Of a stretch of DNA of 64,000 nucleotides, positions 14,971 to 56,503 are shown piece by piece. The DNA comes from Giardia intestinalis (taxonomy: Eukaryota). Within the stretch, counting starts at the first letter, position 1; each line of letters opens with the position of its first letter. The translations under genes and the position numbers were made by a program. The stretch lies in the NCBI GenBank assembly GCA_000002435.2, contig CM018792.1. One strand, 5' to 3'. The notes under the pieces were generated by a model. It did no database searches. It worked only from the letters and a program-made list of their open reading frames with translations, and was not told where the DNA came from.

Positions 14971-15091
14971 CTTTTAAAAATAAAAATCTCTGCTCCTTTT
15001 CGAGTGGTGTTTTCCTACAGGAATGCCTCGAGGCCTCATGGCACAAAACAAATAGTTCAAAGGTTATATATAGAATTGTGCGGGGTTTGCG

Positions 15092-15163
15092 CCGGAATAG
15101 CTCAGCGGTAGAGCGCTGCACTTGTAATGCAGTGGTCGCGGGTTCAATTCCCGCTTTCGGCTT
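15092..15163 (+). tRNA. tRNA-Thr (anticodon UGU).
   Basis: Hand-folded cloverleaf. Acceptor stem GCCGGAA/TTTCGGC with one G-U pair. D arm GCTC-AGCGGTA-GAGC. Anticodon stem CTGCA/TGCAG with loop CTTGTAA, giving anticodon TGT. Variable loop TGGTC. T arm GCGGG-TTCAATT-CCCGC. Discriminator T. 72 nt, no intron. Confidence 0.8.
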
Positions 15164-15187
15164 TTCAGTGGGCCTTACAGGTTACAG

Positions 15188-15991: not shown

Positions 15992-16424
15992 ATGCATGAT
16001 GGTGCGTCTCACTAACGCTGGCCCGTTCTTTGGGTGTGCTGCAAGTCTGTCCTTCTTTTCCGGACGTGCATGCACTCCCACGAGGAACCTACAATTCTGG
16101 ATGCAGTGAAGGGGCCGATTACACGTCAGCCCTAGCAGCCCATGAGAGCCGCCTCCTGCAGACCTCTGGCCCAGGTTATACTGAGGACGCTATCGTAGAC
16201 ACAGATCTTTAGAAATCCTCATCCAACTTGAGTGCCTGAAGGAGTCTTAGTCTCGAGCATTATGCAATCTAACCACCATCGTTCTCGGCTCCAGCTGATC
16301 TTTCCCAATACAAGAGACATCGGGGACCCGTCGCCCAATTCGCACTCACAGTCGCTGTCTCCTGCCAATGGGCGCACCTACTCGAGCTTTCTCCACAATC
16401 GCCACCGCAGTAGATACATTTACA

Positions 16425-30655: not shown

Positions 30656-30692
30656 TGGAACACCCAGATATTTTTCATGTGCTTACTCAAAC

Positions 30693-32723: not shown

Positions 32724-32793
32724 ACGTGCCTCCGGTCACGATAGCAAATTTTAAGGAAGCCAGATTTACTGTAAAACGCACCGAACCTTCTTT

Positions 32794-35331: not shown

Positions 35332-35699
35332 TATATTTATTTTAAGAAGAGATTTACTCCGTGTTAACAGACGAGCTTGCCACCCGCTGCCCGAGCAGGC
35401 CCGCTGGGGCCTCTCCCCCGCCCTGCGCGGTTGACCCCGAGAGCCTGGAGGCCGCCCGATTCTGGGGAGGGGAGGGGTGTCGCGCCTCCTCGCTCTGAGC
35501 GTCGTGACCTTGCTCTTGCGACACCGTCTGGGCTTCTCCTTTCTCTCACTCAGCCCCCTTGGGGCCAACTTCTGTATGGAGTGGAAAGCAGTGATCTTGG
35601 CCACGTAGCCTAGGGCCTTGGTACTCTATGACGAAGATTGCATACGCCATGAACCTCGGGATGGCCCGAAGCTCACCGGATACTTTCTTGTCATCTCGT

Positions 35700-37751
35700 G
35701 GAGCGGGTGTCCGTCCCACTATCAAGGGTGTGCTCCCCGTATGCCTCTATCTTGGAGTTAGAGTACGCACTCATGGATGCCGGCGGACAGCTCCCATGCG
35801 TTGGTGCCGAGGAAGAGGTCCAGCCCTGGTTTGCCTTCCCGCTCGACCCGTCCTTCTGCTCATGGACCACAGCGCGCCTCTTGTGCAGTGCTAGGAGACG
35901 CATACCGACAGACATTGCGCCTTGCCACGTCACTGGCCGGATCTTCCTGCTCGCGGTTGGCATGCGGCTCCTCGTCTGTCTGAACAAGGCAGTGGGGGTT
36001 GGAGTGGCAGAACTAGAGCGTGTTTGCCAGAGGCGCTAGTCTGCCGGCTAGAGGCGGAGTCGAGCGATGCCTGCCCAGAGATGCTCGCTCGGCTGCGAGG
36101 AGCACTGCAGGGGGTTCCACGAGCGCGGGAAGGCTCCCTCCCCTAGAAGCCCCGAGGGCCCTCGCGTCCCCGAGTTCAGTCTCCAGGGGCTTTGCGGGCA
36201 TATGCGACGATCTGGGCGCAAGAGCCCTGGGTGGTCTCGAACTCCGGACGCACGCTTTCACCAGGGTTTCGCACCCGAGCGTCCTCAGATACCACCGGGT
36301 AATCAGAACGAGCTGCTTTGTCTACACAACCATGGACCGCGGCCACAGAAGTCTAGGACAACTCCTCCTTGAGCACATGCAGGCCGACGAGCCGGTCGCT
36401 GAGGGCCTGGTGTTGTCCATCATGGAGCAGCTTTCTACCGGGCTTACCTACCTCCATGACGTCTGCTGGGAGGACGCCAGCGGAGCGCCCTGCCAGGGAA
36501 TCGTCCACTAGAGCCTCACGCCCGCCGACGCCCTCATTAGACAGGACGAACAGCGCGTCGTGCTCGCAGACTTCGCGTCCACAGAAACGCTCTGCACAGT
36601 GGCAGTGCGGAGGCAGAGGGCCCCGCGTACACGGATCCTGAAGCCCTCAGATGGCGCGGCCTCCGATCTCTGGGCCCTTGGTGCTATCGCATGCGAGCCT
36701 GCCACTTTGAAGGGGCCGAGCTTCCTGGACGGGTAAGACGCAAAGGCCCCTTTGTCGCCGGATGGAAGCCGAATCTGGGCCTTGTTGTGAAGGATCTCGT
36801 GTGGGATGTCCTCGGGAGGGTCTTTGCCTCAGACCCCGAGTGGTGACCAACAGCCACCAAGCTCGCCAGCCTGCTTCTGCGTGCGGGACGTCTGCTGTGG
36901 GCCCGGATCTCCAGGCCGGCGAGTTGGCAAGCACGGGCGAGTCTCTGCGGCCAGTGCCGAGTCTGTCCTTTCGAGGCAGGGCCCGAAGATGCCGCTCAGC
37001 ATATCAGAGGCATTGGCGCATCCATCGGGCCGTTCCACCAAAGGGCGGGAGCAGCACACTGCAGACGGGCACGGGGCTTCCATCGAATCGACCGACCAGG
37101 TTGCAGCGAGCGGCACGAGGTCCCTATCCTTCCGGGTCCCTGCGAAGGACTCCTCGTGGACCCGGCTGATGCGCGCTGCCGTTACTGGAGATCTCAAGAC
37201 GGCACAGAAGCACCTTGGTGAAAAGGACAAGAAGAACGAGGCGGCGACGCGGTGTACACTCCTGCCGTCAAGGCCGGACAGGGGCCGATGCTGGAGCTCC
37301 TTGACCTTACGGATAAGGCCGGGTCACGGCGCTCATGAGGGCTGCGGACAGAGGAGACGCAGAGGCAGTGAGGCTTCTGGTGAAGCACGAGGACGGCATG
37401 AGGGATGACGATGATTGACGGCGCTCATGATAGCAGCACGGTATCGCCATCCGGAATGCGTTAAGCTTGCTAGAGAGGGAAGCATGTATGACAGGCATAA
37501 GAGGCGCGACTGCTCTTGTGCATGCGGCGGCCAACGGCAGTGCCTTGTGCATACCCTTCCTCTTGGAGAAGGAGGCATGTGTGCAGGACGCCAGTGGCTG
37601 GTCTGCTCTCGCGTGGGCAACATATCTAGATAAGCCAGAGTGTGCGAAGCTTCTTATGGGGGAGGAGGACATAGAAATCACCCCCATAGCTGGAGGGTAT
37701 GCCGACGATGGCAACAATGGCAAGACCGGTGGCGACTATTGTCGACTATGA
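35700..37751 (+). pseudogene. NEK-type Ser/Thr kinase plus ankyrin-repeat pseudogene with a nonsense codon in the catalytic loop.
   Basis: Kinase subdomains IV-VIa in ORF 36020..36511 (HPSVLRYHRVIRTSCFVYTTMDRGHRSLGQLLLEHM...IMEQLSTGLTYLH). The frame then reads GIVH-TAG-SLTPADALIRQDEQRVVLADFA...ASDLWALGAI, that is HRDLKP, DFG and subdomain IX, with TAG (36496-36498) replacing the Arg of HRD and DFG changed to DFA. Ankyrin repeats are spread over three frames (WTRLMRAAVTGDLKTAQKHL; TALMIAARYRHPECVKLA; GATALVHAAANGSALCIPFLLEKEACVQDASGWSALAWATYLDKPECAKLL). Confidence 0.7.
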
Positions 37752-40301
37752 CGACTATGATTACTCGACTCCTATGACCACGATTATCATGCTCCTGACG
37801 ATCATGACGTTTACGATTGCTACGGTTACTAGTATTCTGATAACTATGATTTTCATAATCCTTTTGAATGCGATTCCTTATGTGGCGCCACAGCTCTTGA
37901 GCTAGAGGATGGATCATCGAGGGATAGTGGAGGTTCTTTCAACGCGACTGCAGGGTACTAACGGGCTTCTCTACAGGCACACCTTTATACAACTGCCAAT
38001 CTGTTTGCAGCAGTAAAGCTGCGTCACCGCAGTGGCCTAGGGGCTGCTCGATCTATAATTCCGCAAGGGGCAGGCTGATAAAGCAAAACTCTGCGGCCTA
38101 ATTTGTGCCCTGTACAGCCAGCAAGCAAATCCTCTGGACCGCCAGCAGAGCTGCTCGTTCAGCGGAGCGCCGTCTCGTAGGGAGAAGCGGGACGTCACTG
38201 TCAGGCCCAAGCGAGAGTGCCGGCGCCATGCGAACAGTCTCCGGTCCCTGGAGGCCGCCCCGGGTCACCGAAGGCAGGGTATCCTATTGCACAGTGCAGG
38301 CGCGTAGCAGCTAACAGAACCGGCGCAAGTGGCGGCCGAGCGGTGGCTTTTGCGCCTCTCCGAAGTGGGGAGACAGTGTCCAGAAGGCGCGAGGTTCCCG
38401 CGATTTGTCTGGAGCCAGCCGGGAGCGTCACAGAAAAAGCATCTTGAGGGCTCCCTAGGTGCAGTGGCAAAGGGACGTCCGCTGCTTCTTCGCCAGCGGC
38501 TTGCCCGGTGGACCACAGGGCCTCCTAGGCCGCCAAGCGCGAACACAGCTGCGATGAGTGGCTACTGTACGCCCTTGTGACACAGAGTGGACGTGCAGGA
38601 TGCCAGCGACGTGCTGAGGAAGGCTTTATTACCCTCCTGCTGTCTGTGCACCTGCTCCTGGTAAGGATGCTGAGCCCATGCTTACAAGCCACGGCCCCTT
38701 TGAGAGTGGCCAAAGCCGGTGCTCGAGCAGAGATAGATGGCTGCCTCGCAGATCTCGAATCGCTGCGCATGCCGGTCCAGAGAGACACCGATCAGCCCGT
38801 CACTAGGGATGAGGATCCAGGCATGAGAATCGCCAGCCTCCCGCGCCTCGGATGGACCCAGGCGATGGTGGTACGGGGCTAAGGGTCCTGCTACATCCGG
38901 GCAGACCAGGCATTGCCTCTGAACATGACATCAGGTCAGGGCCCTGTCGCGGACAGAGGGGCGAGGCTAGAAGCCAGCCGAGGCGGAGCAGCTGCATAGA
39001 CGGGAGCGCAGGTTATTATGGCAGCAGACTTCCACAGACGAGGGAGCCCGCGCTCTACTCCAGGATGAAACAGCGACGCCCCAGAGTGCGGCCCCGAACC
39101 ATGCTGCACCCCTCCTTTTGTGGCGCGGGAAGACTGCATGCACTTCAACCACGATGCATCCGGCCTTGAACACTGTGCGGAAAGACAGGCGGCCAGTGCG
39201 ATTCATGCGACGCAAGGAAGATGCCTCACCTTCTGATGCCCTACAATGCGGGGAACATAGCCCCCTGCGCACGGGCTGTCTGCTTAAGGACGGCAAGCAC
39301 ATGGAACCAGGCATGAACGGAACCGGGTCTTGATAGCGGCACGGCTGTCTTCAAGGGAAGGGTGATCTCTTGTCTCTTTAAGCAAGACGTGCTGGATCGC
39401 ACAAGCTTACGATTGGGTGAGGAAGGCTTCTGCATGCAACTCTCTGGCATGACCTAGCTGCAAACAGGCGGCAGCGAAGAGCGGACAGCGGGCTCCAGTC
39501 GTGCGGAAGGAGGATGCACCTGCCTGAGGCTACACGCAGTCATCAGGCGGGGCGTTCTCTGCAGAGGTTACGTGCTATGCAGGGTCGTGTCAAACCGAAG
39601 GACCACTCTTAGATGAGCCAGACCAAGGTGCCCCCATCCGCGCGAGACAGGCCTGTCAGATATATGGCATGCCTGCGAAAGTGAGCGCCGACAGGCAGGG
39701 GCCCGGGTAGACCTGGCGTCCTGGCCCAGAGAGTGAACGAGGACGGCCCGCGATACTTGTCCAGCCGAAGTATGAACGCTATGATGCCCCGGGTTGGACA
39801 AGCAACTCTTAGCGCCCCCCCTGAGAGGCTGCAGAGGACGGGCTTCTGGATGGAGGGACGACCCCAGCCAGGCAGACGTGATCACAGAAGAAGGGGCGCT
39901 GGAACCCGGAACAGTGGCTGACGACTGCGTGTCTGCGCGATGCAGTGCCCACTACTGTCAGTCGGCACACGGCGGTCGGCAGGACGCAGAGCTGCAGAGT
40001 GCTGGAGGCGCCGAGCGAGGCCAGTCTCGCTCATGGGACAGAGGCTGCCTGAGCCCCGCAGTCCTGCGAGCCTCTGGACGGTGGCAACAAGAGACCTTTC
40101 ATGGTACGCATCTGCCTGGATGGCGGCGTGATCCCAGAGCCGGCATCGTACCACTTCACGAGCATCACGATCGCTGTGTCCCCCACGATGGTCACTCGGG
40201 CAGTAGTCAGGTGCAGGGCATGGCGGCTCTTCCCTGTCCCCCAGCAGGACCTCGTAAGAGTAGAGTAGATTGTATAACGATGGACGCGTTTACTATCTAA
40301 G

Positions 40302-42524
40302 TCACGCCTTGCCCCTACATATGAACCACCAGCAGAGGAAGCCCACGAGGCCCCCAACGACGACGATGACTGCGACGGAGATGCCCGCGATGGCCCCCGT
40401 GGAGAGCCCGCTCTTATTCGTGCTTCCGCCAGTATTGTCGCCGGTATTATCATCCGTTTCGAAACATATGAACTTGCCGTTAACAGGTGTCGCGCACTGC
40501 CTGCATCCAGCCAGCCCCTCGGAGCACTTTCTGCACGGCCCATTACTACTACTCTCCTTGTAATATCCAGGAGTACATACCTTGCATGTAGTAGCATCGG
40601 CTTCGCAGGTGTAGCAACTTTCGTGGCATTTCGTGCAGGCACTGCCGACCTTCACATATCCGTCCATGCACCTAGAACAGTCCCTAGTGGTGGTGCACTC
40701 AGCGCACCCAGTGTAGCAAGCCACAAGGCTCTCGCCTGTCAGGCTAAATCCTTCTTCCGGAGTCTTGCAGGTTCCGCCTGTACTCTGCGCACTCAAGCAC
40801 ACTGTCGACCCCGGAAGCTGGCTGGTGGAGTAGCAGCCGCCGTTCATCTTGAAGAAGCCGTCTGCGCAGACATTGCACACGCCACCAGTAATGCTTCCAT
40901 CTTTGCACTTATCTGTGCGACTGGTTTTAACAGCACAGACGCCGTTCTGGGGATACTCGTTGTTTTGACTACAGACAGAGCAGTATTTTGTCCCCTCAAC
41001 AGTCAGACCGCACTCCCTGCACTTGCCTGTGCCTGTGCCCGCCGCGCACTCGGCCCCACATGTGCCAGTGTTTCCTGTGGATCCGTAGGTGAGCGCGCTT
41101 CCAGACTTACAGCTTGTGCAATCATTGGCAGTATTTCCGCTACATGTCTTACAGCTGGAATCGCAAGGGGAGCACGCTTCGCCGTAGAAGCCGTCCTTAC
41201 AGAGACCGCACCCGCCATTTTCACTGCACGCGAGACAGTTGGCGACCTCGCACTTCTTGCAGACCCTCTTGTTGCCCTCTGTGCTACTGTAGTAGCCTAG
41301 AATATATTCGCAGTGGTCTATGCACTGGTTTGTTGGCGTCAGATACTTGTTGGACAGACATTCGGTGCAGATCTCTTTGTTTGTTTGTGCACCACTGCAT
41401 GCCTTACAATCCTGAGTACTGCATGGATTTGAAGGGGAATCATTTGGCACGCATTGTGTTTCTTCTTCGTCAAGTTTAAATCCATCATTGCACGTGCAAG
41501 TATTCTCGGTCTTGGCTTCTGAGTTATCAGGGCAGCTACTAATGCACGACTTCTTTCCGAGTCCAAATACCATATTTTCCTTACACGCTGTGCAGGTAAC
41601 GGAGGTGTCACTTTTGGTGCATGTTTTGCAGTTCTCAAACGTTCCTGCCGTGCACGGCTTGCACGTCTTCGGCTCCTCATCGTCGGCGTAGTGGGTGTTT
41701 CCACTCGTGCACGCTTCCTCAGTCACGCACTCGCCTGCCTGATCCTGTGACTGCGCCTTCTTTAGGTACGGCTTGTCCTCATTGCAAGAGGTGCACTTCG
41801 TAGCCTCGGTCTCACAGGTCTTGCATGTCTCAGCGCACTTGGTGCATTTTTTACTGCCTGTTGCATCGACGAAGAAGCCTGCAGTACTCGTGCACTCATG
41901 TTCCGTCACACACGACGTCACGTCGCCGTCCGTCTTAACAATCCTCGCGGTTTGCTGCGCATCAGGGCCGCACGCAGTACACTTAGCAACTCCACTGGCC
42001 TCTACCGTTAATTGTAATCCGTCACAGGCAGTGCACCCATCCACGCCCGTGTACTTCTTATTGCCAGTAAGCGTCACGCCTATCGAATCTCCGCACGAAA
42101 CAACCGAGTCGTGCGCATTATCAGCGCCCGGCGGTAGAAAGTATCCTTCCGTAGCCTGTGTGCACTTACCACCAGCTGCTCCTCCACACATCACATTGCC
42201 AGGCTCAATAGCTTGTTCGTAACACCCGCCCTTGTACATAAAAGTCTGACCAGCGCACTTTGCACAGGTCTCATCAGATGCAGTATTTCCATCGGCAGCT
42301 GTACATTTATCTGTTACATCATCTTTGCCTACACATTTTCCATTGATAGGAACAAATCCTGTGTTACATTGAGAGCAATACAATTTACCACCGATCAGAA
42401 CGTTGCATGCGTTTGCTGCACAATTGGCGTTATTCGCGCAGTGAGCTTCCCGCGCACGTTCTGCTACTTTTTCTGCCCATGCAATCTGGATGGCTAGGCC
42501 CGCGAATATAAAACTGCCGAACAT
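40302..42524 (-). CDS. vsp: Variant-specific surface protein (VSP), 740 aa, copy 1 of an identical pair.
   Basis: Signal peptide MFGSFIFAGLAIQIAWA. About 12% Cys with many CXXC motifs. C-terminal TM plus the invariant Giardia VSP tail GGLVGFLCWWFICRGKA. AGTAAAC polyA signal 7 nt after the stop (40288..40294 on the minus strand). Confidence 0.93.
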   Translation of the reverse strand: MFGSFIFAGLAIQIAWAEKVAERAREAHCANNANCAANACNVLIGGKLYCSQCNTGFVPINGKCVGKDDVTDKCTAADGNTASDETCAKCAGQTFMYKGGCYEQAIEPGNVMCGGAAGGKCTQATEGYFLPPGADNAHDSVVSCGDSIGVTLTGNKKYTGVDGCTACDGLQLTVEASGVAKCTACGPDAQQTARIVKTDGDVTSCVTEHECTSTAGFFVDATGSKKCTKCAETCKTCETEATKCTSCNEDKPYLKKAQSQDQAGECVTEEACTSGNTHYADDEEPKTCKPCTAGTFENCKTCTKSDTSVTCTACKENMVFGLGKKSCISSCPDNSEAKTENTCTCNDGFKLDEEETQCVPNDSPSNPCSTQDCKACSGAQTNKEICTECLSNKYLTPTNQCIDHCEYILGYYSSTEGNKRVCKKCEVANCLACSENGGCGLCKDGFYGEACSPCDSSCKTCSGNTANDCTSCKSGSALTYGSTGNTGTCGAECAAGTGTGKCRECGLTVEGTKYCSVCSQNNEYPQNGVCAVKTSRTDKCKDGSITGGVCNVCADGFFKMNGGCYSTSQLPGSTVCLSAQSTGGTCKTPEEGFSLTGESLVACYTGCAECTTTRDCSRCMDGYVKVGSACTKCHESCYTCEADATTCKVCTPGYYKESSSNGPCRKCSEGLAGCRQCATPVNGKFICFETDDNTGDNTGGSTNKSGLSTGAIAGISVAVIVVVGGLVGFLCWWFICRGKA

Positions 42525-43439
42525 TAACCAATCTGGTAGATTGATAGGAACAGAATCGCGATATATTCAGCCAATCCGTGTGACTGACACATGATGATGA
42601 TGATGATTTACTCCACCCACCGGTTGCTTCCAGTGGTGTGCTGCTGGGGCCCTCGCCTGCAGGCGCTGTCCGCAAATCTCGCGAGTAAATTCCCGCTCAA
42701 TTTTTGGCGATGTCCGGAGATGAGGGTTGGTCACGGGCCGTAACGATAATCACAGCGGTTGTAAGGAGGAGCTATCTGCATTCCTCGGCTGTTCCGTGGG
42801 CATGCGCACACAACCGGACCTGAAACGAAGGAGAGCCCGCAAGGACCCGATCCACATCATGAACGCAAGATCGTACCTTCGGGCCCCCAGAGAGCAAGCC
42901 GTGAGTCTCTACTTGGGAGACCACTCCAAAGACGCTTGCCCTCTCGGCAGGACACACACGCTGGCTCTGTGGCCTACCGTGCAAGAGTGCCAACAATCAA
43001 CCGAGCACCTGAGAGAAGCAAATGATAACAGACACAGAGTACTAGGTGACGACAAACTGATCATTCCATCCCATATACCGAACCAGACAGCTGCCATGCT
43101 CATCCACCAGGGTGCAGCATGATCGCGAGCATCGAGCAGGCCGGGACTGGGGTAGCGCTCCCCGCTATCAGGGGCCTGAACGCCTTGGTAGGAAACTGCT
43201 AGAAGACTCAAGCAACACAGCAGAGCAGACCCAGAGCAAGGCGGACCCAGACCCCGAGAAGGCGAGACGCCGGATAGCAAACAGGGTGAACAACGCGCTG
43301 AGTTTCGGGGCAGTTGCCAAGGCCCTCCGCGCCCTTGATGACACGCCCACGATAGACAAGCCGGAGAAGGCCGACCGCCCTCAGCGCGCTACACCTGTGC
43401 GTCCCCCCGAAGGCTACGTTGGCCTTGACTACCCTCCAT

Positions 43440-45110
43440 CGATGAGCTCGACGGGCTGGAGTGGCAACCGAAGAAGAAATGAGGAAGGCTCTGTTTGAGA
43501 CTCTCAACAAGAAGGCCTCGGGCCGGTCCAGCTCAAGGCGATGAAGCAGAGCGACAGCTTCGTGAAGTACCTCACGCAGGCATACAACGAGCTGACCACC
43601 CACCCCGAGGCGATGCCAGAGGTGATGGCCATGCTCGAGTTCCGGGCGATCCTCATCCCGAAGGAGTCCGACGGATACCGCCCGATCGCGATAGGCGAGA
43701 CGGTGACAAACATCTTCCACCGCGTCCTGCTGAAGGGCTGATCAGGCATGCCAACTACCTCTTGTGCGAACAGATCGCCTTCATGCAGAACGCATACGCG
43801 GTAGGCGTGAGGAGGGCCCACGAGCTCATCAGCAGGACAGGAGCACGCCGTCTCCCTCGACACAAAGAACGCCCTCAACTCGCTCCCGAGGGCGGAGGTC
43901 GTCAGAGCCCTGAACGAGGCGGGCGTCCCGAAGGTCCTGGTCGACTACATCGGGGACTTCCTCGACCTGAGGCACAGCCGGGACGTGAAGTGCGAGGTCT
44001 GCGGCGTCCCCCAGGGCGACCCGCTCAGCATGCTCCTCTTCTGCATGGCCACCGAGCGCCTCCTGAGACGCCTCAGGGAGAGGGGCATCACCTTCCTTGC
44101 CTATGCGGACGACATCGTGGCGTTCCACGACGAGGCCTACCCAGCAGGCGTGATAACACAGCTGGCCATGGGCCTGACGATCAGGAGCGACAATGCAAGT
44201 CCACCATGGCGGGCGAGGAGGTGACCTTCCCCAACCACCCGGTGTCCCCCACTCCTGCCAGTCTCGCGCCGAAGGCCATCGCAGGTGCCGAGACTGCCCT
44301 GAGGAAGATTGAGAACGCCCCCATAACCACCCACCAGAAGCTCATCCTGATGTCACTCTGCGTGGTCCCGATGGTGAACTACGCCCCCCTGGTCGAGATA
44401 ACATCGGATAAGGCGGACTACAAGGAGCTGACAGATATCGCACAAGGCTTCAGCAAGCTAACCAGCAGAAGCTGCGATCGCCTGGTCGACTTCCTGGCGT
44501 ACCAAAGGAGAAGGGCGGCCCGGGCCTGCTCATGCCGGGGTTCTACCACGACGAGCTGCGGAGAGCATGGGCCTCCCTGGACGTCAACAAGGGGACCAGA
44601 GACCCGGTGGAGCTGCCGGTGGAAGGCCAGGCACTGCAAGGGAAGGGGACCTACTCCAACCGCCTCCTCACGCATACACCAGCTTCCGGACAGAGCGGCG
44701 GCGTGCTGACCGAGGAGGAAAGGGCCCTGAAGCAGAGAGATGGCTCGATCATGGGGCAGACAAGAGGCACCTGCCCGGGCTGCCACACGGCAAGGACCCT
44801 CGACCGCGACATGATCGTCACGTGCCTGTACCTCCGCGTCTCAGGGAAGTTCAACGCAGAGCTGGAGGTCAAGACCCACAGCCACCTCAGCGGCCAGAAC
44901 CAGAAGCCCGACATCTGGTTCGTCGACAAGTGCAAGGCGATAGATGTGGGTGTCATCCAGCCCCGCCAGATGGACGCCTACTACAACGAGAAGGTCAAGA
45001 AGTACAGGGACGGGACGCTCCCGATCATCTACGGGACAGACGGATCCCTCCACCCAAGTCCAAGGGGCACCTCGAGGAGCTCCACGTGGACCTCTGTCCG
45101 GGCTGCCTTC
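43440..45110 (+). mobile_element. Degenerate non-LTR retrotransposon (Giardia GilD/Genie-like: RT plus CCHC plus REL-endonuclease) with at least 3 frameshifts, filling the palindrome spacer.
   Basis: RT motif 0 (EEEMRKALFETLNKKASGP..QLKAMK, about 43470-43560, frameshifted). Motifs 1-2 (AILIPKESDGYRPIAIGETVTNIFHRVLLK, 43541..43741). Motif A (VSLDTKNALNSLPRAEVV), B (CGVPQGDPLSMLLF) and C (FLAYADDIVAF) in a second frame (about 43840..44222). Thumb in a third frame (ALRKIENAPITTHQKLILMSLCVVPMVNYAPLVE). Then CPGCH...C and a PD-(D/E)xK block (KPDIWFVDKCKAIDVGV) in ORF 44532..45359. No frame is intact across them. Confidence 0.8.
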
Positions 45111-45766
45111 GCCATCGCCCACATGGCTGCAAAGGCGAACGAGCACCCGACGAAGCTGATCAGACGGGCCGGGCCGAAAGCCTGGCCACCCAGAGCGACC
45201 GTCTCCTGTCATCCTACTTCTGACAACCGAATGAGTCCATCCCCGGGACCTGTCGACAACGACCGAGAAGGGGCGCAAGACTGGACACACAACCGAGTTG
45301 AATCCCAACCAGAAGAGAAAGCCCCGCTAGCTGCTGCTGATATACATGGACAGTATTGAGAATGACAACAAAGACCAGAGCTTCACTCACCGTGAAGGGA
45401 GAGCAAGGAGAGGCACCCTAGTAGACCAGCAAGCCTGCAGGACGGCTTGATCTCTGAAAGAACCGATGTGCACACCCAGTCTGAGCTCACGCCCACGGAA
45501 CAGCCGAGGAATGCAGATAGCTCCTCCCTTCCACTACTGTGGTCTTTGTATTGATACACGACCAACCCTCGTCTCCGGACTAGTCAGGGACTGAGCAAGA
45601 GCTTACCCGTGAGATCTCTGGACCATACCTGCAGGCGAGGGCCCCAGCAGCACACCACTGGAAGCAACCGGTGGGTGGAGTAAATCATCATCATCATCAT
45701 GTGTCAGTCACACGGATTGGCTGAATATATCGCGATTCTGTTCCTATCAATCTACCAGATTGGTTA

Positions 45767-47989
45767 ATGTTCGGCAGTTTTATATTCGCGGGCCTAGCCA
45801 TCCAGATTGCATGGGCAGAAAAAGTAGCAGAACGTGCGCGGGAAGCTCACTGCGCGAATAACGCCAATTGTGCAGCAAACGCATGCAACGTTCTGATCGG
45901 TGGTAAATTGTATTGCTCTCAATGTAACACAGGATTTGTTCCTATCAATGGAAAATGTGTAGGCAAAGATGATGTAACAGATAAATGTACAGCTGCCGAT
46001 GGAAATACTGCATCTGATGAGACCTGTGCAAAGTGCGCTGGTCAGACTTTTATGTACAAGGGCGGGTGTTACGAACAAGCTATTGAGCCTGGCAATGTGA
46101 TGTGTGGAGGAGCAGCTGGTGGTAAGTGCACACAGGCTACGGAAGGATACTTTCTACCGCCGGGCGCTGATAATGCGCACGACTCGGTTGTTTCGTGCGG
46201 AGATTCGATAGGCGTGACGCTTACTGGCAATAAGAAGTACACGGGCGTGGATGGGTGCACTGCCTGTGACGGATTACAATTAACGGTAGAGGCCAGTGGA
46301 GTTGCTAAGTGTACTGCGTGCGGCCCTGATGCGCAGCAAACCGCGAGGATTGTTAAGACGGACGGCGACGTGACGTCGTGTGTGACGGAACATGAGTGCA
46401 CGAGTACTGCAGGCTTCTTCGTCGATGCAACAGGCAGTAAAAAATGCACCAAGTGCGCTGAGACATGCAAGACCTGTGAGACCGAGGCTACGAAGTGCAC
46501 CTCTTGCAATGAGGACAAGCCGTACCTAAAGAAGGCGCAGTCACAGGATCAGGCAGGCGAGTGCGTGACTGAGGAAGCGTGCACGAGTGGAAACACCCAC
46601 TACGCCGACGATGAGGAGCCGAAGACGTGCAAGCCGTGCACGGCAGGAACGTTTGAGAACTGCAAAACATGCACCAAAAGTGACACCTCCGTTACCTGCA
46701 CAGCGTGTAAGGAAAATATGGTATTTGGACTCGGAAAGAAGTCGTGCATTAGTAGCTGCCCTGATAACTCAGAAGCCAAGACCGAGAATACTTGCACGTG
46801 CAATGATGGATTTAAACTTGACGAAGAAGAAACACAATGCGTGCCAAATGATTCCCCTTCAAATCCATGCAGTACTCAGGATTGTAAGGCATGCAGTGGT
46901 GCACAAACAAACAAAGAGATCTGCACCGAATGTCTGTCCAACAAGTATCTGACGCCAACAAACCAGTGCATAGACCACTGCGAATATATTCTAGGCTACT
47001 ACAGTAGCACAGAGGGCAACAAGAGGGTCTGCAAGAAGTGCGAGGTCGCCAACTGTCTCGCGTGCAGTGAAAATGGCGGGTGCGGTCTCTGTAAGGACGG
47101 CTTCTACGGCGAAGCGTGCTCCCCTTGCGATTCCAGCTGTAAGACATGTAGCGGAAATACTGCCAATGATTGCACAAGCTGTAAGTCTGGAAGCGCGCTC
47201 ACCTACGGATCCACAGGAAACACTGGCACATGTGGGGCCGAGTGCGCGGCGGGCACAGGCACAGGCAAGTGCAGGGAGTGCGGTCTGACTGTTGAGGGGA
47301 CAAAATACTGCTCTGTCTGTAGTCAAAACAACGAGTATCCCCAGAACGGCGTCTGTGCTGTTAAAACCAGTCGCACAGATAAGTGCAAAGATGGAAGCAT
47401 TACTGGTGGCGTGTGCAATGTCTGCGCAGACGGCTTCTTCAAGATGAACGGCGGCTGCTACTCCACCAGCCAGCTTCCGGGGTCGACAGTGTGCTTGAGT
47501 GCGCAGAGTACAGGCGGAACCTGCAAGACTCCGGAAGAAGGATTTAGCCTGACAGGCGAGAGCCTTGTGGCTTGCTACACTGGGTGCGCTGAGTGCACCA
47601 CCACTAGGGACTGTTCTAGGTGCATGGACGGATATGTGAAGGTCGGCAGTGCCTGCACGAAATGCCACGAAAGTTGCTACACCTGCGAAGCCGATGCTAC
47701 TACATGCAAGGTATGTACTCCTGGATATTACAAGGAGAGTAGTAGTAATGGGCCGTGCAGAAAGTGCTCCGAGGGGCTGGCTGGATGCAGGCAGTGCGCG
47801 ACACCTGTTAACGGCAAGTTCATATGTTTCGAAACGGATGATAATACCGGCGACAATACTGGCGGAAGCACGAATAAGAGCGGGCTCTCCACGGGGGCCA
47901 TCGCGGGCATCTCCGTCGCAGTCATCGTCGTCGTTGGGGGCCTCGTGGGCTTCCTCTGCTGGTGGTTCATATGTAGGGGCAAGGCGTGA
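45767..47989 (+). CDS. vsp: Variant-specific surface protein (VSP), 740 aa, copy 2. Identical to 40302..42524 and head-to-head with it.
   Basis: Identical 740-aa translation ending ...FLCWWFICRGKA. AGTAAAC polyA signal at 47997..48003. Confidence 0.93.
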   Translation: MFGSFIFAGLAIQIAWAEKVAERAREAHCANNANCAANACNVLIGGKLYCSQCNTGFVPINGKCVGKDDVTDKCTAADGNTASDETCAKCAGQTFMYKGGCYEQAIEPGNVMCGGAAGGKCTQATEGYFLPPGADNAHDSVVSCGDSIGVTLTGNKKYTGVDGCTACDGLQLTVEASGVAKCTACGPDAQQTARIVKTDGDVTSCVTEHECTSTAGFFVDATGSKKCTKCAETCKTCETEATKCTSCNEDKPYLKKAQSQDQAGECVTEEACTSGNTHYADDEEPKTCKPCTAGTFENCKTCTKSDTSVTCTACKENMVFGLGKKSCISSCPDNSEAKTENTCTCNDGFKLDEEETQCVPNDSPSNPCSTQDCKACSGAQTNKEICTECLSNKYLTPTNQCIDHCEYILGYYSSTEGNKRVCKKCEVANCLACSENGGCGLCKDGFYGEACSPCDSSCKTCSGNTANDCTSCKSGSALTYGSTGNTGTCGAECAAGTGTGKCRECGLTVEGTKYCSVCSQNNEYPQNGVCAVKTSRTDKCKDGSITGGVCNVCADGFFKMNGGCYSTSQLPGSTVCLSAQSTGGTCKTPEEGFSLTGESLVACYTGCAECTTTRDCSRCMDGYVKVGSACTKCHESCYTCEADATTCKVCTPGYYKESSSNGPCRKCSEGLAGCRQCATPVNGKFICFETDDNTGDNTGGSTNKSGLSTGAIAGISVAVIVVVGGLVGFLCWWFICRGKA

Positions 47990-47996
47990 CTTAGAT

Positions 47997-48003
47997 AGTA
48001 AAC
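47997..48003 (+). terminator. Giardia polyadenylation signal AGTAAAC (AGTRAAY) 7 nt after the VSP stop. Its mirror is at 40288..40294 on the minus strand.
   Basis: Exact match to the AGTRAAY consensus, which normally lies within about 10-30 nt downstream of the stop codon in Giardia mRNAs. Confidence 0.7.
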
Positions 48004-50539
48004 GCGTCCATCGTTATACAATCTACTCTACTCTTACGAGGTCCTGCTGGGGGACAGGGAAGAGCCGCCATGCCCTGCACCTGACTACTGCCCGAGTGAC
48101 CATCGTGGGGGACACAGCGATCGTGATGCTCGTGAAGTGGTACGATGCCGGCTCTGGGATCACGCCGCCATCCAGGCAGATGCGTACCATGAAAGGTCTC
48201 TTGTTGCCACCGTCCAGAGGCTCGCAGGACTGCGGGGCTCAGGCAGCCTCTGTCCCATGAGCGAGACTGGCCTCGCTCGGCGCCTCCAGCACTCTGCAGC
48301 TCTGCGTCCTGCCGACCGCCGTGTGCCGACTGACAGTAGTGGGCACTGCATCGCGCAGACACGCAGTCGTCAGCCACTGTTCCGGGTTCCAGCGCCCCTT
48401 CTTCTGTGATCACGTCTGCCTGGCTGGGGTCGTCCCTCCATCCAGAAGCCCGTCCTCTGCAGCCTCTCAGGGGGGGCGCTAAGAGTTGCTTGTCCAACCC
48501 GGGGCATCATAGCGTTCATACTTCGGCTGGACAAGTATCGCGGGCCGTCCTCGTTCACTCTCTGGGCCAGGACGCCAGGTCTACCCGGGCCCCTGCCTGT
48601 CGGCGCTCACTTTCGCAGGCATGCCATATATCTGACAGGCCTGTCTCGCGCGGATGGGGGCACCTTGGTCTGGCTCATCTAAGAGTGGTCCTTCGGTTTG
48701 ACACGACCCTGCATAGCACGTAACCTCTGCAGAGAACGCCCCGCCTGATGACTGCGTGTAGCCTCAGGCAGGTGCATCCTCCTTCCGCACGACTGGAGCC
48801 CGCTGTCCGCTCTTCGCTGCCGCCTGTTTGCAGCTAGGTCATGCCAGAGAGTTGCATGCAGAAGCCTTCCTCACCCAATCGTAAGCTTGTGCGATCCAGC
48901 ACGTCTTGCTTAAAGAGACAAGAGATCACCCTTCCCTTGAAGACAGCCGTGCCGCTATCAAGACCCGGTTCCGTTCATGCCTGGTTCCATGTGCTTGCCG
49001 TCCTTAAGCAGACAGCCCGTGCGCAGGGGGCTATGTTCCCCGCATTGTAGGGCATCAGAAGGTGAGGCATCTTCCTTGCGTCGCATGAATCGCACTGGCC
49101 GCCTGTCTTTCCGCACAGTGTTCAAGGCCGGATGCATCGTGGTTGAAGTGCATGCAGTCTTCCCGCGCCACAAAAGGAGGGGTGCAGCATGGTTCGGGGC
49201 CGCACTCTGGGGCGTCGCTGTTTCATCCTGGAGTAGAGCGCGGGCTCCCTCGTCTGTGGAAGTCTGCTGCCATAATAACCTGCGCTCCCGTCTATGCAGC
49301 TGCTCCGCCTCGGCTGGCTTCTAGCCTCGCCCCTCTGTCCGCGACAGGGCCCTGACCTGATGTCATGTTCAGAGGCAATGCCTGGTCTGCCCGGATGTAG
49401 CAGGACCCTTAGCCCCGTACCACCATCGCCTGGGTCCATCCGAGGCGCGGGAGGCTGGCGATTCTCATGCCTGGATCCTCATCCCTAGTGACGGGCTGAT
49501 CGGTGTCTCTCTGGACCGGCATGCGCAGCGATTCGAGATCTGCGAGGCAGCCATCTATCTCTGCTCGAGCACCGGCTTTGGCCACTCTCAAAGGGGCCGT
49601 GGCTTGTAAGCATGGGCTCAGCATCCTTACCAGGAGCAGGTGCACAGACAGCAGGAGGGTAATAAAGCCTTCCTCAGCACGTCGCTGGCATCCTGCACGT
49701 CCACTCTGTGTCACAAGGGCGTACAGTAGCCACTCATCGCAGCTGTGTTCGCGCTTGGCGGCCTAGGAGGCCCTGTGGTCCACCGGGCAAGCCGCTGGCG
49801 AAGAAGCAGCGGACGTCCCTTTGCCACTGCACCTAGGGAGCCCTCAAGATGCTTTTTCTGTGACGCTCCCGGCTGGCTCCAGACAAATCGCGGGAACCTC
49901 GCGCCTTCTGGACACTGTCTCCCCACTTCGGAGAGGCGCAAAAGCCACCGCTCGGCCGCCACTTGCGCCGGTTCTGTTAGCTGCTACGCGCCTGCACTGT
50001 GCAATAGGATACCCTGCCTTCGGTGACCCGGGGCGGCCTCCAGGGACCGGAGACTGTTCGCATGGCGCCGGCACTCTCGCTTGGGCCTGACAGTGACGTC
50101 CCGCTTCTCCCTACGAGACGGCGCTCCGCTGAACGAGCAGCTCTGCTGGCGGTCCAGAGGATTTGCTTGCTGGCTGTACAGGGCACAAATTAGGCCGCAG
50201 AGTTTTGCTTTATCAGCCTGCCCCTTGCGGAATTATAGATCGAGCAGCCCCTAGGCCACTGCGGTGACGCAGCTTTACTGCTGCAAACAGATTGGCAGTT
50301 GTATAAAGGTGTGCCTGTAGAGAAGCCCGTTAGTACCCTGCAGTCGCGTTGAAAGAACCTCCACTATCCCTCGATGATCCATCCTCTAGCTCAAGAGCTG
50401 TGGCGCCACATAAGGAATCGCATTCAAAAGGATTATGAAAATCATAGTTATCAGAATACTAGTAACCGTAGCAATCGTAAACGTCATGATCGTCAGGAGC
50501 ATGATAATCGTGGTCATAGGAGTCGAGTAATCATAGTCG

Positions 50540-52591
50540 TCATAGTCGACAATAGTCGCCACCGGTCTTGCCATTGTTGCCATCGTCGGCATACCCTCCA
50601 GCTATGGGGGTGATTTCTATGTCCTCCTCCCCCATAAGAAGCTTCGCACACTCTGGCTTATCTAGATATGTTGCCCACGCGAGAGCAGACCAGCCACTGG
50701 CGTCCTGCACACATGCCTCCTTCTCCAAGAGGAAGGGTATGCACAAGGCACTGCCGTTGGCCGCCGCATGCACAAGAGCAGTCGCGCCTCTTATGCCTGT
50801 CATACATGCTTCCCTCTCTAGCAAGCTTAACGCATTCCGGATGGCGATACCGTGCTGCTATCATGAGCGCCGTCAATCATCGTCATCCCTCATGCCGTCC
50901 TCGTGCTTCACCAGAAGCCTCACTGCCTCTGCGTCTCCTCTGTCCGCAGCCCTCATGAGCGCCGTGACCCGGCCTTATCCGTAAGGTCAAGGAGCTCCAG
51001 CATCGGCCCCTGTCCGGCCTTGACGGCAGGAGTGTACACCGCGTCGCCGCCTCGTTCTTCTTGTCCTTTTCACCAAGGTGCTTCTGTGCCGTCTTGAGAT
51101 CTCCAGTAACGGCAGCGCGCATCAGCCGGGTCCACGAGGAGTCCTTCGCAGGGACCCGGAAGGATAGGGACCTCGTGCCGCTCGCTGCAACCTGGTCGGT
51201 CGATTCGATGGAAGCCCCGTGCCCGTCTGCAGTGTGCTGCTCCCGCCCTTTGGTGGAACGGCCCGATGGATGCGCCAATGCCTCTGATATGCTGAGCGGC
51301 ATCTTCGGGCCCTGCCTCGAAAGGACAGACTCGGCACTGGCCGCAGAGACTCGCCCGTGCTTGCCAACTCGCCGGCCTGGAGATCCGGGCCCACAGCAGA
51401 CGTCCCGCACGCAGAAGCAGGCTGGCGAGCTTGGTGGCTGTTGGTCACCACTCGGGGTCTGAGGCAAAGACCCTCCCGAGGACATCCCACACGAGATCCT
51501 TCACAACAAGGCCCAGATTCGGCTTCCATCCGGCGACAAAGGGGCCTTTGCGTCTTACCCGTCCAGGAAGCTCGGCCCCTTCAAAGTGGCAGGCTCGCAT
51601 GCGATAGCACCAAGGGCCCAGAGATCGGAGGCCGCGCCATCTGAGGGCTTCAGGATCCGTGTACGCGGGGCCCTCTGCCTCCGCACTGCCACTGTGCAGA
51701 GCGTTTCTGTGGACGCGAAGTCTGCGAGCACGACGCGCTGTTCGTCCTGTCTAATGAGGGCGTCGGCGGGCGTGAGGCTCTAGTGGACGATTCCCTGGCA
51801 GGGCGCTCCGCTGGCGTCCTCCCAGCAGACGTCATGGAGGTAGGTAAGCCCGGTAGAAAGCTGCTCCATGATGGACAACACCAGGCCCTCAGCGACCGGC
51901 TCGTCGGCCTGCATGTGCTCAAGGAGGAGTTGTCCTAGACTTCTGTGGCCGCGGTCCATGGTTGTGTAGACAAAGCAGCTCGTTCTGATTACCCGGTGGT
52001 ATCTGAGGACGCTCGGGTGCGAAACCCTGGTGAAAGCGTGCGTCCGGAGTTCGAGACCACCCAGGGCTCTTGCGCCCAGATCGTCGCATATGCCCGCAAA
52101 GCCCCTGGAGACTGAACTCGGGGACGCGAGGGCCCTCGGGGCTTCTAGGGGAGGGAGCCTTCCCGCGCTCGTGGAACCCCCTGCAGTGCTCCTCGCAGCC
52201 GAGCGAGCATCTCTGGGCAGGCATCGCTCGACTCCGCCTCTAGCCGGCAGACTAGCGCCTCTGGCAAACACGCTCTAGTTCTGCCACTCCAACCCCCACT
52301 GCCTTGTTCAGACAGACGAGGAGCCGCATGCCAACCGCGAGCAGGAAGATCCGGCCAGTGACGTGGCAAGGCGCAATGTCTGTCGGTATGCGTCTCCTAG
52401 CACTGCACAAGAGGCGCGCTGTGGTCCATGAGCAGAAGGACGGGTCGAGCGGGAAGGCAAACCAGGGCTGGACCTCTTCCTCGGCACCAACGCATGGGAG
52501 CTGTCCGCCGGCATCCATGAGTGCGTACTCTAACTCCAAGATAGAGGCATACGGGGAGCACACCCTTGATAGTGGGACGGACACCCGCTCC
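50540..52591 (-). pseudogene. Second copy, identical and mirrored, of the NEK kinase plus ankyrin pseudogene.
   Basis: Mirror of 35700..37751. The same TAG sits in the HRD position (ORF 51780..52271(-) ends GIVH-stop). Confidence 0.7.
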
Positions 52592-52953
52592 ACGAGATGA
52601 CAAGAAAGTATCCGGTGAGCTTCGGGCCATCCCGAGGTTCATGGCGTATGCAATCTTCGTCATAGAGTACCAAGGCCCTAGGCTACGTGGCCAAGATCAC
52701 TGCTTTCCACTCCATACAGAAGTTGGCCCCAAGGGGGCTGAGTGAGAGAAAGGAGAAGCCCAGACGGTGTCGCAAGAGCAAGGTCACGACGCTCAGAGCG
52801 AGGAGGCGCGACACCCCTCCCCTCCCCAGAATCGGGCGGCCTCCAGGCTCTCGGGGTCAACCGCGCAGGGCGGGGGAGAGGCCCCAGCGGGCCTGCTCGG
52901 GCAGCGGGTGGCAAGCAAATTCTACAAAGATTTACTTCTAAGAACGTAAAGGA

Positions 52954-56355: not shown

Positions 56356-56503
56356 CTCTCACTTTTTATAAATTAAAAATATCGCGTCTTGTGGCGTTCT
56401 TTGCAGCTTGGTTGCCCCGGACTTTGAGGGAGTCACCAACAAAGAGACCGCAAGCATCAGCCAGCGTACCACGGGGAATACTTAAGAGTTTAAGATTTCA
56501 ACC

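What the first reader, a model, noticed from the sequence alone, without database searches (positions are those of the whole stretch)
35375..52916. 17.5-kb palindromic module: perfect 7.29-kb inverted repeat around a 2.97-kb spacer, sitting between two tightly spaced core genes
Two arms (35375-42662 and 45629-52916) are exact reverse complements, symmetric about 44145.5. Every mirrored six-frame ORF translates identically, including a 740-aa VSP, so the arms are effectively 100% identical over 7.29 kb. The module begins 44 bp from the start codon of the gene ending at 35331 and ends 38 bp before the stop codon of gene 52954-56355. If the module were removed, those two minus-strand genes would be tandem with an ordinary Giardia spacing of about 80 bp, so it behaves like an insertion or acquired accessory island in a syntenic core region. 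A perfect palindrome this large can form hairpins or cruciforms, is unstable during replication, and is a substrate for gene conversion and amplification. It could also be an assembly artefact, which needs excluding.
Basis: seen in the sequence. Interest (0 to 1): 0.85.

Follow-up and report, generated by a model that had tools for sequence, protein, structure and literature searches.

The report
Known Giardia duplicated VSP gene palindrome
This is a real 17.5-kb palindrome in the Giardia WB reference genome carrying two identical surface-antigen (VSP) genes around a dead retrotransposon; the gene pair is already listed in the genome paper, and the only additions here are that the palindrome is old and its two arms appear to be kept identical by copying between them.

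Summary
The arms 35375-42663 and 45628-52916 are exact reverse complements (7289 nt, 0 mismatches) around a 2964-nt spacer.

The window is Giardia intestinalis WB, chromosome 4. Each arm holds a 740-aa VSP gene. The two are head to head and 3242 bp apart, with a decayed reverse transcriptase between them. This is the pair 50229/d50229 in Table 2 of Xu et al. 2020, and the class has been described since Adam et al. 2010.

It is not an assembly artefact. Independent Illumina contigs and AII assemblies contain both outer junctions.

In G. muris the two flanking genes are adjacent, 95 bp apart, so the module occupies a synteny-break site. Assemblage B has a different Cys-rich gene at that site. 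Assemblage E has its own short inverted repeat there.

Sub-assemblage AII has the same palindrome with the same outer boundaries. Its arms are identical to each other over the 419 nt that can be tested. They differ from the WB arms by 5-13%, and they carry a different VSP (51% aa identity).

I infer an old palindrome homogenised by arm-to-arm gene conversion, with replacement of the VSP cassette. It is catalogued, so interest is low to moderate.

The parts
32794..35331 (-). Left flanking core gene, Nop14-like. It is 100% identical to WB XP_001705334.1 / KAE8304421.1.
   Evidence: Pfam Nop14; 845/845 identity to P0008
35375..42663 (.). Left arm of the palindrome (7289 nt, GC 58%)
35700..37760 (+). 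Decayed NEK-type kinase/ankyrin gene remnant in the outer arm. It is frame-shifted and has a paralogue at window 1200-3100.
   Evidence: Pkinase 7.8e-4 (19.4 bits, below Pfam's curated cut-off of 31.7) at 36020-36511; Ank_2 1.6e-10 at 37467-37751; broken frames. Illumina contigs agree 100% over 35375-38466.
37761..40301 (.). GC-rich arm segment with no recognisable coding content
   Evidence: No Pfam hit for any open stretch of 90 aa or more; no Rfam or tRNA hit
40302..42524 (-). VSP gene copy 1 (740 aa), one of GL50803_50229 / d50229
   Evidence: Pfam VSP 1.1e-136; 100% identical to P0027 on the 2,761,001-bp WB contig; Xu 2020 Table 2
42664..42815 (.). Degraded inner continuation of the inverted repeat, left side (about 75-80% to its partner)
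   Evidence: (I2)
42664..45627 (.). Single-copy spacer (2964 nt, GC 60%)
43661..44209 (+). Reverse-transcriptase domain remnant of a non-LTR retrotransposon, with 3 in-frame stops
   Evidence: Pfam RVT_1 1.2e-17, 64.7 bits; best PDB matches are R2 retrotransposon proteins, 1.1e-5; coordinates; 'psiRT' in Xu 2020 Table 2
44532..45359 (+). 275-aa open frame downstream of the RT. It shows a CCHC-like motif and a KPD...D.K motif by eye, so it may be a restriction-like endonuclease remnant. Its relatives are only short fragments.
   Evidence: No Pfam or PDB hit; 55 relatives, and the strong ones are all 54-257 aa
45476..45627 (.). Degraded inner continuation of the inverted repeat, right side
45628..52916 (.). 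Right arm of the palindrome, the exact reverse complement of the left arm
45767..47989 (+). VSP gene copy 2 (740 aa), head to head with copy 1 and 3242 bp from it
50540..52271 (-). Mirror copy of the kinase and ankyrin remnants
   Evidence: Mirror coordinates; ORFs 50883-51485 and 51780-52271
52954..56355 (-). Right flanking core gene, an M16C/PreP-type metalloprotease. It is 100% identical to WB KAE8304424.1.
   Evidence: Pfam; P0147 100%

Best explanation
The feature is the duplicated, head-to-head VSP gene pair GL50803_50229/d50229 on chromosome 4 of Giardia intestinalis WB. It belongs to the known class of identical inverted VSP pairs. Each arm is a 7.29-kb unit made of a decayed NEK kinase/ankyrin gene lying tail to tail with an intact 740-aa VSP gene. 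The 2.96-kb spacer is a dead non-LTR retrotransposon remnant. The module sits in what was ancestrally a roughly 95-bp intergenic spacer between the M16 peptidase and Nop14 genes, at one of the synteny-break sites where Giardia keeps its variable gene families. Shown here: the structure is real, it is present with the same outer boundaries in sub-assemblage AII, and arms within a genome are identical while arms of AI and AII differ by 5-13%. Inferred: the palindrome predates the AI/AII split, and its arms are kept identical by recurrent intrachromosomal (arm-to-arm) gene conversion, as in primate Y-chromosome palindromes. The VSP coding cassette was exchanged in one lineage by ectopic recombination with another VSP, bounded by the conserved VSP 3' end and the proximal promoter, and the new cassette was then copied to the other arm. 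The net effect is two always-identical copies of one antigen gene. Any effect on expression is unknown.
For: Identity and catalogue. Both flanking proteins and the VSP are 100% identical to WB C6 proteins on the 2.76-Mb contig. Xu et al. 2020 Table 2 lists 'Chr 4, 50229, d50229, <- ->, 740 aa, 3242 bp, psiRT', which matches the window exactly. The class is described by Adam et al. 2010, by bioRxiv 2022.03.07.483299, and for G. muris.

Reality. Logan Illumina contigs from 20 runs cover 29966-38466, which is the left flank plus 3092 nt of arm. Contigs from 4 runs cover 49825-56356, which is the right flank plus 3092 nt of arm. All are at 100% identity. Several other right-flank contigs (L007, L009-L011; the L007 contig is recorded in 20 or more samples) stop 30 nt (k-1) into the arm, as expected at a repeat boundary.

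Age and homogenisation. The 419 nt after the DH (AII) peptidase gene are 419/419 identical to the reverse complement of DH's Nop14-upstream arm, but only 96.4% identical to WB. The boundary is the same within 2 nt. The full AII arm with a 747-aa VSP is joined to Nop14 in DH and to the peptidase in an AII metagenome contig. AI-versus-AII identity is 94-95% in the outer arm, 87-92% in the middle arm, 58% nt and 51% aa in the VSP ORF, and 98.8% in the flanks. The abrupt step from 100% to about 78% identity at 42663/42664, followed by about 150 nt of decayed symmetry, fits a conversion-tract boundary in an old repeat.

Site. In G. muris the peptidase and Nop14 genes are adjacent with a 95-bp spacer.

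Spacer. RVT_1 scores 1.2e-17 with in-frame stops, and the best solved-structure matches are R2 proteins.
Against: Both arms of one AII genome could be compared over only 419 nt, because the DH contig ends there. The rest of the AII evidence comes from different isolates. The perfect identity in WB may be slightly overstated, because short-read polishing cannot tell the arms apart. All short-read contigs that enter the arm stop at 38466/49825, which may mark a real inter-arm or allelic variant. The inner arm-spacer junctions of WB were not confirmed with independent WB reads. Only the right-hand type of inner junction is seen, in AII contigs. Arm identity extends 4927 nt beyond the VSP stop codon, much further than the 139-729 bp reported for pairs in the 2007 assembly. 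Gene conversion is inferred from the pattern and was not observed.
Confidence: 0.85

Rival explanations
1. A recent one-off inverted duplication. Under this reading the arms are identical simply because they are young, as Adam et al. 2010 suggested for identical pairs, and there is no ongoing homogenisation.
For: Zero differences over 7289 nt. Adam et al. proposed relatively recent duplication and transposition events.
Against: AII has the same palindrome with the same outer boundary within 2 nt. Its arms are identical to each other but differ from WB arms at 12 substitutions and 1 indel in 419 nt, and by 5-13% over the rest. Two independent duplications with the same end points are very unlikely. 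The 150 nt of decayed symmetry just inside the perfect arms also points to an older repeat.
Confidence: 0.07
2. An assembly artefact, such as a PacBio missed-adapter chimera or a mis-join that created a false second arm.
For: Identical VSP pairs were once suspected to be assembly artefacts. Polishing can erase small differences between arms.
Against: Both outer junctions are present at 100% identity in independent Illumina assemblies. Both are also present in the 454-based DH assembly and in ENA metagenome assemblies. A 3-kb unique spacer is not what missed-adapter chimeras produce. The WB assembly was 200x PacBio with read N50 of 12.7 kb, checked against optical maps.
Confidence: 0.02
3. A mobile composite element: a foldback or TIR-bounded unit that inserted as a whole between the two core genes.
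For: It lies exactly in an ancestral intergenic spacer. It contains a retrotransposon remnant. It is GC-rich relative to the flanks.
Against: No target-site duplication abuts the arms. The outer 100-150 nt of the arm are homologous to single-copy Nop14-proximal DNA in P15. Assemblages B and E hold different contents at the same site. No intact transposase or RT is present. The spacer and other non-palindromic islands in the window are equally GC-rich.
Confidence: 0.03
4. A functional hairpin locus. Read-through transcription across both arms would give long double-stranded RNA that feeds the RNAi-type pathway proposed to silence VSP genes. This is not exclusive of the best explanation.
For: There is only the geometry: perfect 7.3-kb complementary arms that contain a VSP. 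The RNAi model of VSP control is my own knowledge (Prucca et al. 2008) and was not tested here.
Against: The two VSP genes are transcribed away from each other, so normal transcripts do not contain both arms. No RNA evidence was available. No structured-RNA family matched.
Confidence: 0.04

Closest known systems
Identical inverted VSP gene pairs of Giardia intestinalis WB (Adam et al. 2010, BMC Genomics 11:424; Xu et al. 2020, Sci Data 7:38, Table 2; vsp1267 as prototype)
   Same: Two nucleotide-identical VSP ORFs lie in inverted orientation, separated by about 2-4 kb (here 3242 bp). Identity ends abruptly 139 nt above the start codon. An RT remnant lies between the head-to-head copies. This very pair (50229/d50229) is tabulated.
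   Different: Published descriptions list genes and distances only. Arm identity here runs 4927 nt beyond the stop codon and includes a decayed NEK gene, against 139-729 bp reported from the 2007 assembly. Those papers treat the pairs as probably recent duplications, whereas the AI/AII comparison here indicates an old structure that is kept homogenised.
Identical VSP pairs in Giardia muris (Xu et al. 2020, Microb Genom 6:mgen000402)
   Same: Seven identical pairs, head to head or tail to tail, with NEK, ankyrin or zinc-finger genes or pseudogenes in the intervening DNA.
   Different: It is a different species and the loci are different. At this locus G. muris has no insert at all.
Ampliconic palindromes of primate Y chromosomes, maintained by arm-to-arm gene conversion (Rozen et al. 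2003; my own knowledge)
   Same: Long arms with near-100% identity surround a unique spacer. The orthologous palindrome in a sister lineage has arms that are alike within a lineage but diverged between lineages. The arms carry members of a multi-copy gene family.
   Different: The scale differs (7 kb against 9 kb-1.45 Mb), as do the organism and the ploidy (tetraploid, binucleate, largely asexual Giardia). Conversion here is inferred from one sister-lineage comparison only.
Non-LTR retrotransposons of Giardia, GilM/GilT/GilD (Arkhipova and Morrison 2001, my own knowledge; GilM mentioned)
   Same: The spacer encodes an RVT_1 domain that is closest to R2-type elements. It is decayed and belongs to a family seen only as fragments, as expected of the 'dead' GilD family.
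   Different: Assignment to GilD rather than GilM or GilT was not tested, because no reference sequences were available. It is not telomeric. The endonuclease domain was recognised only by eye.

Membership tests
Giardia identical inverted VSP pair | Two VSP ORFs with identical nucleotide sequence | tested here: met
   Both 740-aa ORFs lie inside the perfect arms. Pfam VSP 1.1e-136, CRGKA tail, 28 CXXC motifs.
Giardia identical inverted VSP pair | Inverted orientation (head to head or tail to tail) on one chromosome | tested here: met
   40302-42524(-) and 45767-47989(+), so the starts face each other.
Giardia identical inverted VSP pair | ORFs separated by about 2.2-3.8 kb of intervening DNA | tested here: met
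   42525-45766 is 3242 bp, identical to the value in Xu 2020 Table 2 for 50229/d50229.
Giardia identical inverted VSP pair | Flank identity ends abruptly 139-729 bp from the ORFs (Adam 2010) | tested here: inconclusive
   The 5' side fits, at 139 nt. On the 3' side identity continues for 4927 nt, well outside the published range. That range came from a fragmented assembly in which pairs sat at contig ends.
Giardia identical inverted VSP pair, psiRT subclass | Reverse-transcriptase remnant between head-to-head copies | tested here: met
   RVT_1 1.2e-17 with 3 in-frame stops at 43661-44209(+).
Palindrome maintained by arm-to-arm gene conversion | Arms within a genome far more alike than orthologous arms between sister lineages that share the palindrome | tested here: met
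   WB shows 0/7289 differences and DH shows 0/419 differences between arms. WB against DH shows 12 substitutions and 1 indel in those 419 nt and 5-13% over the arm. The boundary is shared within 2 nt. The within-genome AII test is limited to 419 nt.
Palindrome maintained by arm-to-arm gene conversion | Direct observation of conversion tracts, or of spacer inversion isomers from associated crossovers | not testable with these tools
   This needs long reads. The DH contig has the spacer in the opposite orientation to WB, but short-read assemblers cannot phase across identical 7.3-kb arms.
Transposon-like insertion (TIR or foldback element) | Target-site duplication directly flanking the terminal inverted repeats | tested here: not met
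   The left flank ends ...CAGACGA and the right flank begins AAATTCT..., so there is no direct repeat.
Non-LTR retrotransposon (intact element) | Uninterrupted ORF with RT and endonuclease domains | tested here: not met
   Stops and frame shifts are present. The C-terminal ORF has no Pfam or PDB match. Relatives are fragments only. It is therefore a remnant, not an active element.

The most novel reading that the evidence does not exclude
The palindrome may be an ancient, actively recombining device rather than a passive duplicate. Arm-to-arm recombination would flip the spacer, so both isomers coexist, as hinted by the opposite spacer orientation in the DH contig. It would also fix any newly recombined VSP cassette in both copies at once. 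Occasional read-through across the arms could yield hairpin RNA that takes part in VSP silencing. The same logic might then apply to all ~20 VSP pairs in WB and to those of G. muris.
Probability: 0.12. Interest if true: 0.6.

Novelty: already known. Interest (0 to 1): 0.27.

Why it matters
VSP genes are the antigenic-variation repertoire of a major human gut parasite, and the authors who catalogued the identical inverted pairs called them a 'cryptic observation'. Two points here bear on how the repertoire evolves. One such pair has persisted with the same boundaries since before the AI/AII split while its arms stayed identical. Its VSP cassette was also swapped. Together these suggest that the pairs are long-lived, homogenised structures rather than fresh duplicates. 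In practice, reads cannot be assigned to one copy. Expression, SNP and copy-number analyses of 50229/d50229 and of the 4.9 kb beyond it must therefore allow two-fold multi-mapping. The basic finding is already in the literature, so it is not a discovery.

Tried and rejected
- Exact-protein look-ups of the window's Nop14 and VSP found nothing, because the WB 2020 assembly is not in the gene-position index. I worked around this with cluster members and Logan contigs.
- A metagenome scan with the spacer ORF and another with a 38-nt spacer DNA pattern found no Giardia contigs.
- Pfam on all open stretches of 38000-40300 found nothing.
- The first attempt to scan whole frames failed because of stop codons.
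- Rfam and tRNA scans of the module were empty.
- The PDB and Pfam gave no support for an endonuclease in ORF 44532-45359. The exhaustive protein search returned only short fragments. The restriction-like endonuclease call therefore remains an eye-only inference.
- I considered GC-biased gene conversion as the cause of the arms' high GC and rejected it. The single-copy spacer (60%) and two non-palindromic islands in the window (58-61%) are just as GC-rich. WB/DH differences show no excess of strong bases in WB (158 against 193).
- I considered the DH spacer orientation as proof of flip-flop inversion and rejected it as proof, because short-read assemblies cannot phase across the arms.
- The Arkhipova and Morrison 2001 paper on GilD could not be opened.
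Full report
**Observation.** A base-by-base test of reverse complementarity about the point 44145.5 shows an uninterrupted perfect match from 35375 to 42663 against 52916 to 45628. The repeat finder's 7325 nt at '100%' includes 13 mismatches in its last 36 nt. Inside the perfect arms the symmetry does not stop at once. About 150 further nucleotides on each side (to roughly 42815 and 45476) are still 75-80% complementary and include a perfect 37-nt block. The single-copy spacer between the perfect arms is 42664-45627 (2964 nt). The module is GC-rich: the arms are 58% and the spacer 60%, against 45% in both flanks.

**Source of the window.** The left flanking gene (32794-35331, minus strand; Pfam Nop14) is 845/845 identical to the Nop14-like protein of Giardia intestinalis WB clone C6. 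The right flanking gene (52954-56355, minus; M16C/PreP metalloprotease) and the 740-aa ORF in the arms are also 100% identical to WB proteins located on a 2,761,001-bp contig. The window is therefore from chromosome 4 of the PacBio reference assembly.

**Anatomy.**
- Each arm contains an intact VSP gene: 40302-42524 on the minus strand and 45767-47989 on the plus strand. Pfam VSP scores 1.1e-136, and the protein has 28 CXXC motifs, a GGCY motif and a CRGKA terminus.
- The two genes are head to head and 3242 bp apart. Perfect identity extends 139 nt above each start codon.
- Beyond the stop codon the arm continues for 4927 nt of GC-rich DNA (61%). The outer 2 kb is a frame-shifted NEK-type kinase plus ankyrin remnant. 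The Pkinase fragment at 36020-36511 is weak and below Pfam's cut-off. Ank_2 scores 1.6e-10 at 37467-37751.
- The remaining 2.5 kb of the arm has no recognisable content.
- The spacer carries, on the plus strand, a reverse-transcriptase domain with three in-frame stops (43661-44209; RVT_1 1.2e-17). Its best solved relatives are R2 non-LTR retrotransposon proteins.
- Downstream of the RT is a 275-aa open frame. By eye it has a CCHC-like motif and a KPD...D.K motif. It has no family or structure match, and its relatives in 1.84 billion proteins are only short fragments. This is a dead retroelement family.

**Already known.** Xu et al. [quoted passage not shown] This is exactly the structure in the window.
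- They report 19 duplicated VSP pairs. Four of the seven divergent pairs have an RT remnant between the copies.
- Adam et al. 2010 (PMC2996952) had described 14 identical inverted pairs 2190-3847 bp apart. They noted that such pairs terminated contigs and called them 'an interesting, but cryptic observation'.
- A 2022 preprint counts 20 pairs 'always surrounded by retrotransposon relics'.
- G. muris has seven such pairs.

**Artefact or real.** Independent short-read assemblies (Logan) of many sequencing runs contain both outer junctions at 100% identity.
- Contigs from 20 runs cover window 29966-38466, which is the Nop14 flank plus 3092 nt of arm.
- Contigs from 4 runs cover 49825-56356, which is the peptidase flank plus the mirrored 3092 nt.
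- Several other right-flank contigs (L007 and L009-L011, with the L007 contig recorded in 20 or more samples) stop 30 nt into the arm. This is the k-1 overhang expected where a de Bruijn graph meets a repeat.
- The same two junctions exist in assemblies of sub-assemblage AII made with other technologies (below).
- The reference itself was built from 200x PacBio with read N50 of 12.7 kb and checked against optical maps.

An artefact is very unlikely. What I could not confirm with independent WB reads are the two inner arm-spacer junctions and the exactness of the 100% identity. All short-read contigs that enter the arm stop at precisely 38466/49825. That point lies next to a spot where DH carries a 36-nt insertion and clustered substitutions. 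A real inter-arm or allelic variant may be hidden there.

**Synteny.**
- In G. muris the order is Rav1-like gene, M16 peptidase, Nop14. The last two are tandem and 95 bp apart.
- The site has a longer history, though. In assemblage B (GS) the gap is 4607 bp and 56.5% GC. It holds one 704-aa high-cysteine membrane protein on the opposite strand, has no inverted repeat and shows no nucleotide similarity to the WB module.
- In assemblage E (P15) the site holds other ORFs and a 393-aa VSP. The 366 nt starting 209 nt after the peptidase stop are 99.5% identical to the reverse complement of the DNA 228-593 nt upstream of Nop14. This is a separate short inverted repeat with different boundaries.
- The first 100-150 nt or more of the WB arm next to Nop14 are homologous to P15's single-copy Nop14-proximal DNA. 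Identity is 81%, 70% and 64% in successive 50-nt bins. The peptidase-proximal DNA of P15 has no counterpart in WB.
- No target-site duplication abuts the arms.

The module was therefore built up in place at a synteny-break site. The peptidase-side arm is the derived copy. It was not dropped in as a unit.

**Comparison with AII.**
- In DH, contig AHGT01000005.1 runs from spacer to a 747-aa VSP, then the arm, then Nop14.
- Contig AHGT01000053.1 runs from the peptidase 419 nt into the arm before it ends.
- Those 419 nt are 419/419 identical to the reverse complement of DH's own Nop14-side arm. They differ from WB at 12 substitutions and one indel (96.4%). The arm begins at the same base within 2 nt.
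- AII short-read contigs also break 30 nt into the arm.
- An AII metagenome contig (ERZ19219916 NODE_367) carries the full arm with the 747-aa VSP joined to the peptidase.

AII therefore has the same palindrome. Between WB and AII the flanks are 98.8% identical and the outer 2 kb of the arm 94-95%. The middle arm is 87-92% and the conserved VSP 3' end 84%. The VSP ORF is only 58% identical in nucleotides and 51% in amino acids. The 65 nt just upstream of the ATG are again 94% identical.

If the arms had evolved independently since the AI/AII split, about 15 differences would be expected in the 419 nt tested in DH, and several hundred in WB. None is seen. Two independent duplications with the same end point are implausible. 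The arms therefore evolve in concert. The sharp step from 100% to about 78% identity at 42663/42664 looks like the edge of the conversion tract in an older repeat.

**Mechanism.**
- Shown: a real, conserved palindrome consisting of a VSP plus a decayed NEK gene in each arm around a dead retroelement, at an ancestral intergenic site.
- Inferred: the arms are homogenised by intrachromosomal gene conversion.
- Inferred: the VSP cassette was replaced in one lineage by ectopic recombination, using the conserved 3' end and the proximal promoter as anchors, and was then copied to the partner arm.
- Not supported: special instability. The structure has kept its boundaries across sub-assemblages. From general knowledge of yeast and bacterial studies, a 3-kb spacer makes cruciform or hairpin formation unlikely.
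- Not supported: GC-biased conversion as the cause of the high GC. The single-copy spacer and other islands in the window are equally GC-rich.

**Open points.** The DH contig joins the retroelement's 3' end, through the arm, to Nop14. WB and the AII metagenome contig join it to the peptidase. This is either a true inversion of the spacer by crossover between the arms, or an arbitrary path chosen by assemblers that cannot phase across 7.3 kb of identity. Long reads would decide. Whether the pairing affects VSP expression or silencing is untested.

**Verdict.** The added value is threefold. The identical arms are ten times longer than the published flank identities. The palindrome predates the AI/AII split and evolves in concert. 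The site was an ordinary 95-bp spacer in the Giardia ancestor. Interest is low to moderate.

Noticed in passing
window 38466 / 49825 (mirror positions in the arms): All 24 independent short-read (Logan) contigs that enter the arm from either flank end at exactly this base. Nothing in the window is repeated there. DH has a 36-nt insertion and clustered substitutions within about 50 nt. This may mark a real inter-arm or allelic variant that the polished reference hides.
   Followed up: partly
L001 1-2130 (DH contig AHGT01000005.1) against window 43514-45515: In the DH assembly the spacer is oriented oppositely, relative to the flanking genes, compared with WB and with an AII metagenome contig (L020). 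This is either a spacer inversion isomer or an arbitrary assembler path through identical arms.
   Followed up: partly
window 160-3100: A Cys-rich membrane protein gene (160-1065, plus strand, running off the window start) is followed tail to tail by a GC-rich decayed NEK-like kinase on the minus strand (about 1200-3100). The 5' part of that kinase remnant is 72-82% identical to the arm at 35619-35882. 'Cys-rich gene plus decayed NEK' therefore appears to be a recurring unit.
   Followed up: partly
window 15000-18452: A 675-aa high-cysteine membrane protein gene (16425-18452, minus strand) has a 58% GC block (15000-16400) upstream. It is another GC-rich variable-family island in otherwise 43-46% GC core DNA.
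   Followed up: no
L003 9408-9773 and L019 13611-13975 (assemblage E, P15): P15 has its own 366-nt, 99.5% inverted repeat bracketing the same peptidase-Nop14 site, with different boundaries. It also has a degraded (67%) internal inverted repeat, 8728-9764 against 4783-5964.
   Followed up: partly
L023 5394-10000 (assemblage B, GS): The same intergenic site in GS is 4607 bp and 56.5% GC. It holds a single 704-aa HCMP-like gene with a long cytoplasmic tail instead of a VSP pair.
   Followed up: partly
window 42591-42607 and 45684-45700: An (ATG)5.7 triplet microsatellite lies 67-83 nt upstream of each VSP start codon, inside the perfect arms.
   Followed up: no
window 32794-35604: A 936-aa GTG-initiated ORF extends the Nop14-like gene 273 nt upstream into the arm, and prokaryote-style gene callers report it (P0009 in 20 Logan contigs). 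It is an over-extension artefact. The real start is the ATG at 35331.
   Followed up: yes
window 35332-35374 and 52917-52953: Both short unique flanks carry AGTAAATCT, which resembles the Giardia polyadenylation signal. One copy lies after the peptidase stop and one just upstream of the Nop14 promoter. This may be a relic of the original single intergenic spacer. No true target-site duplication is present.
   Followed up: partly
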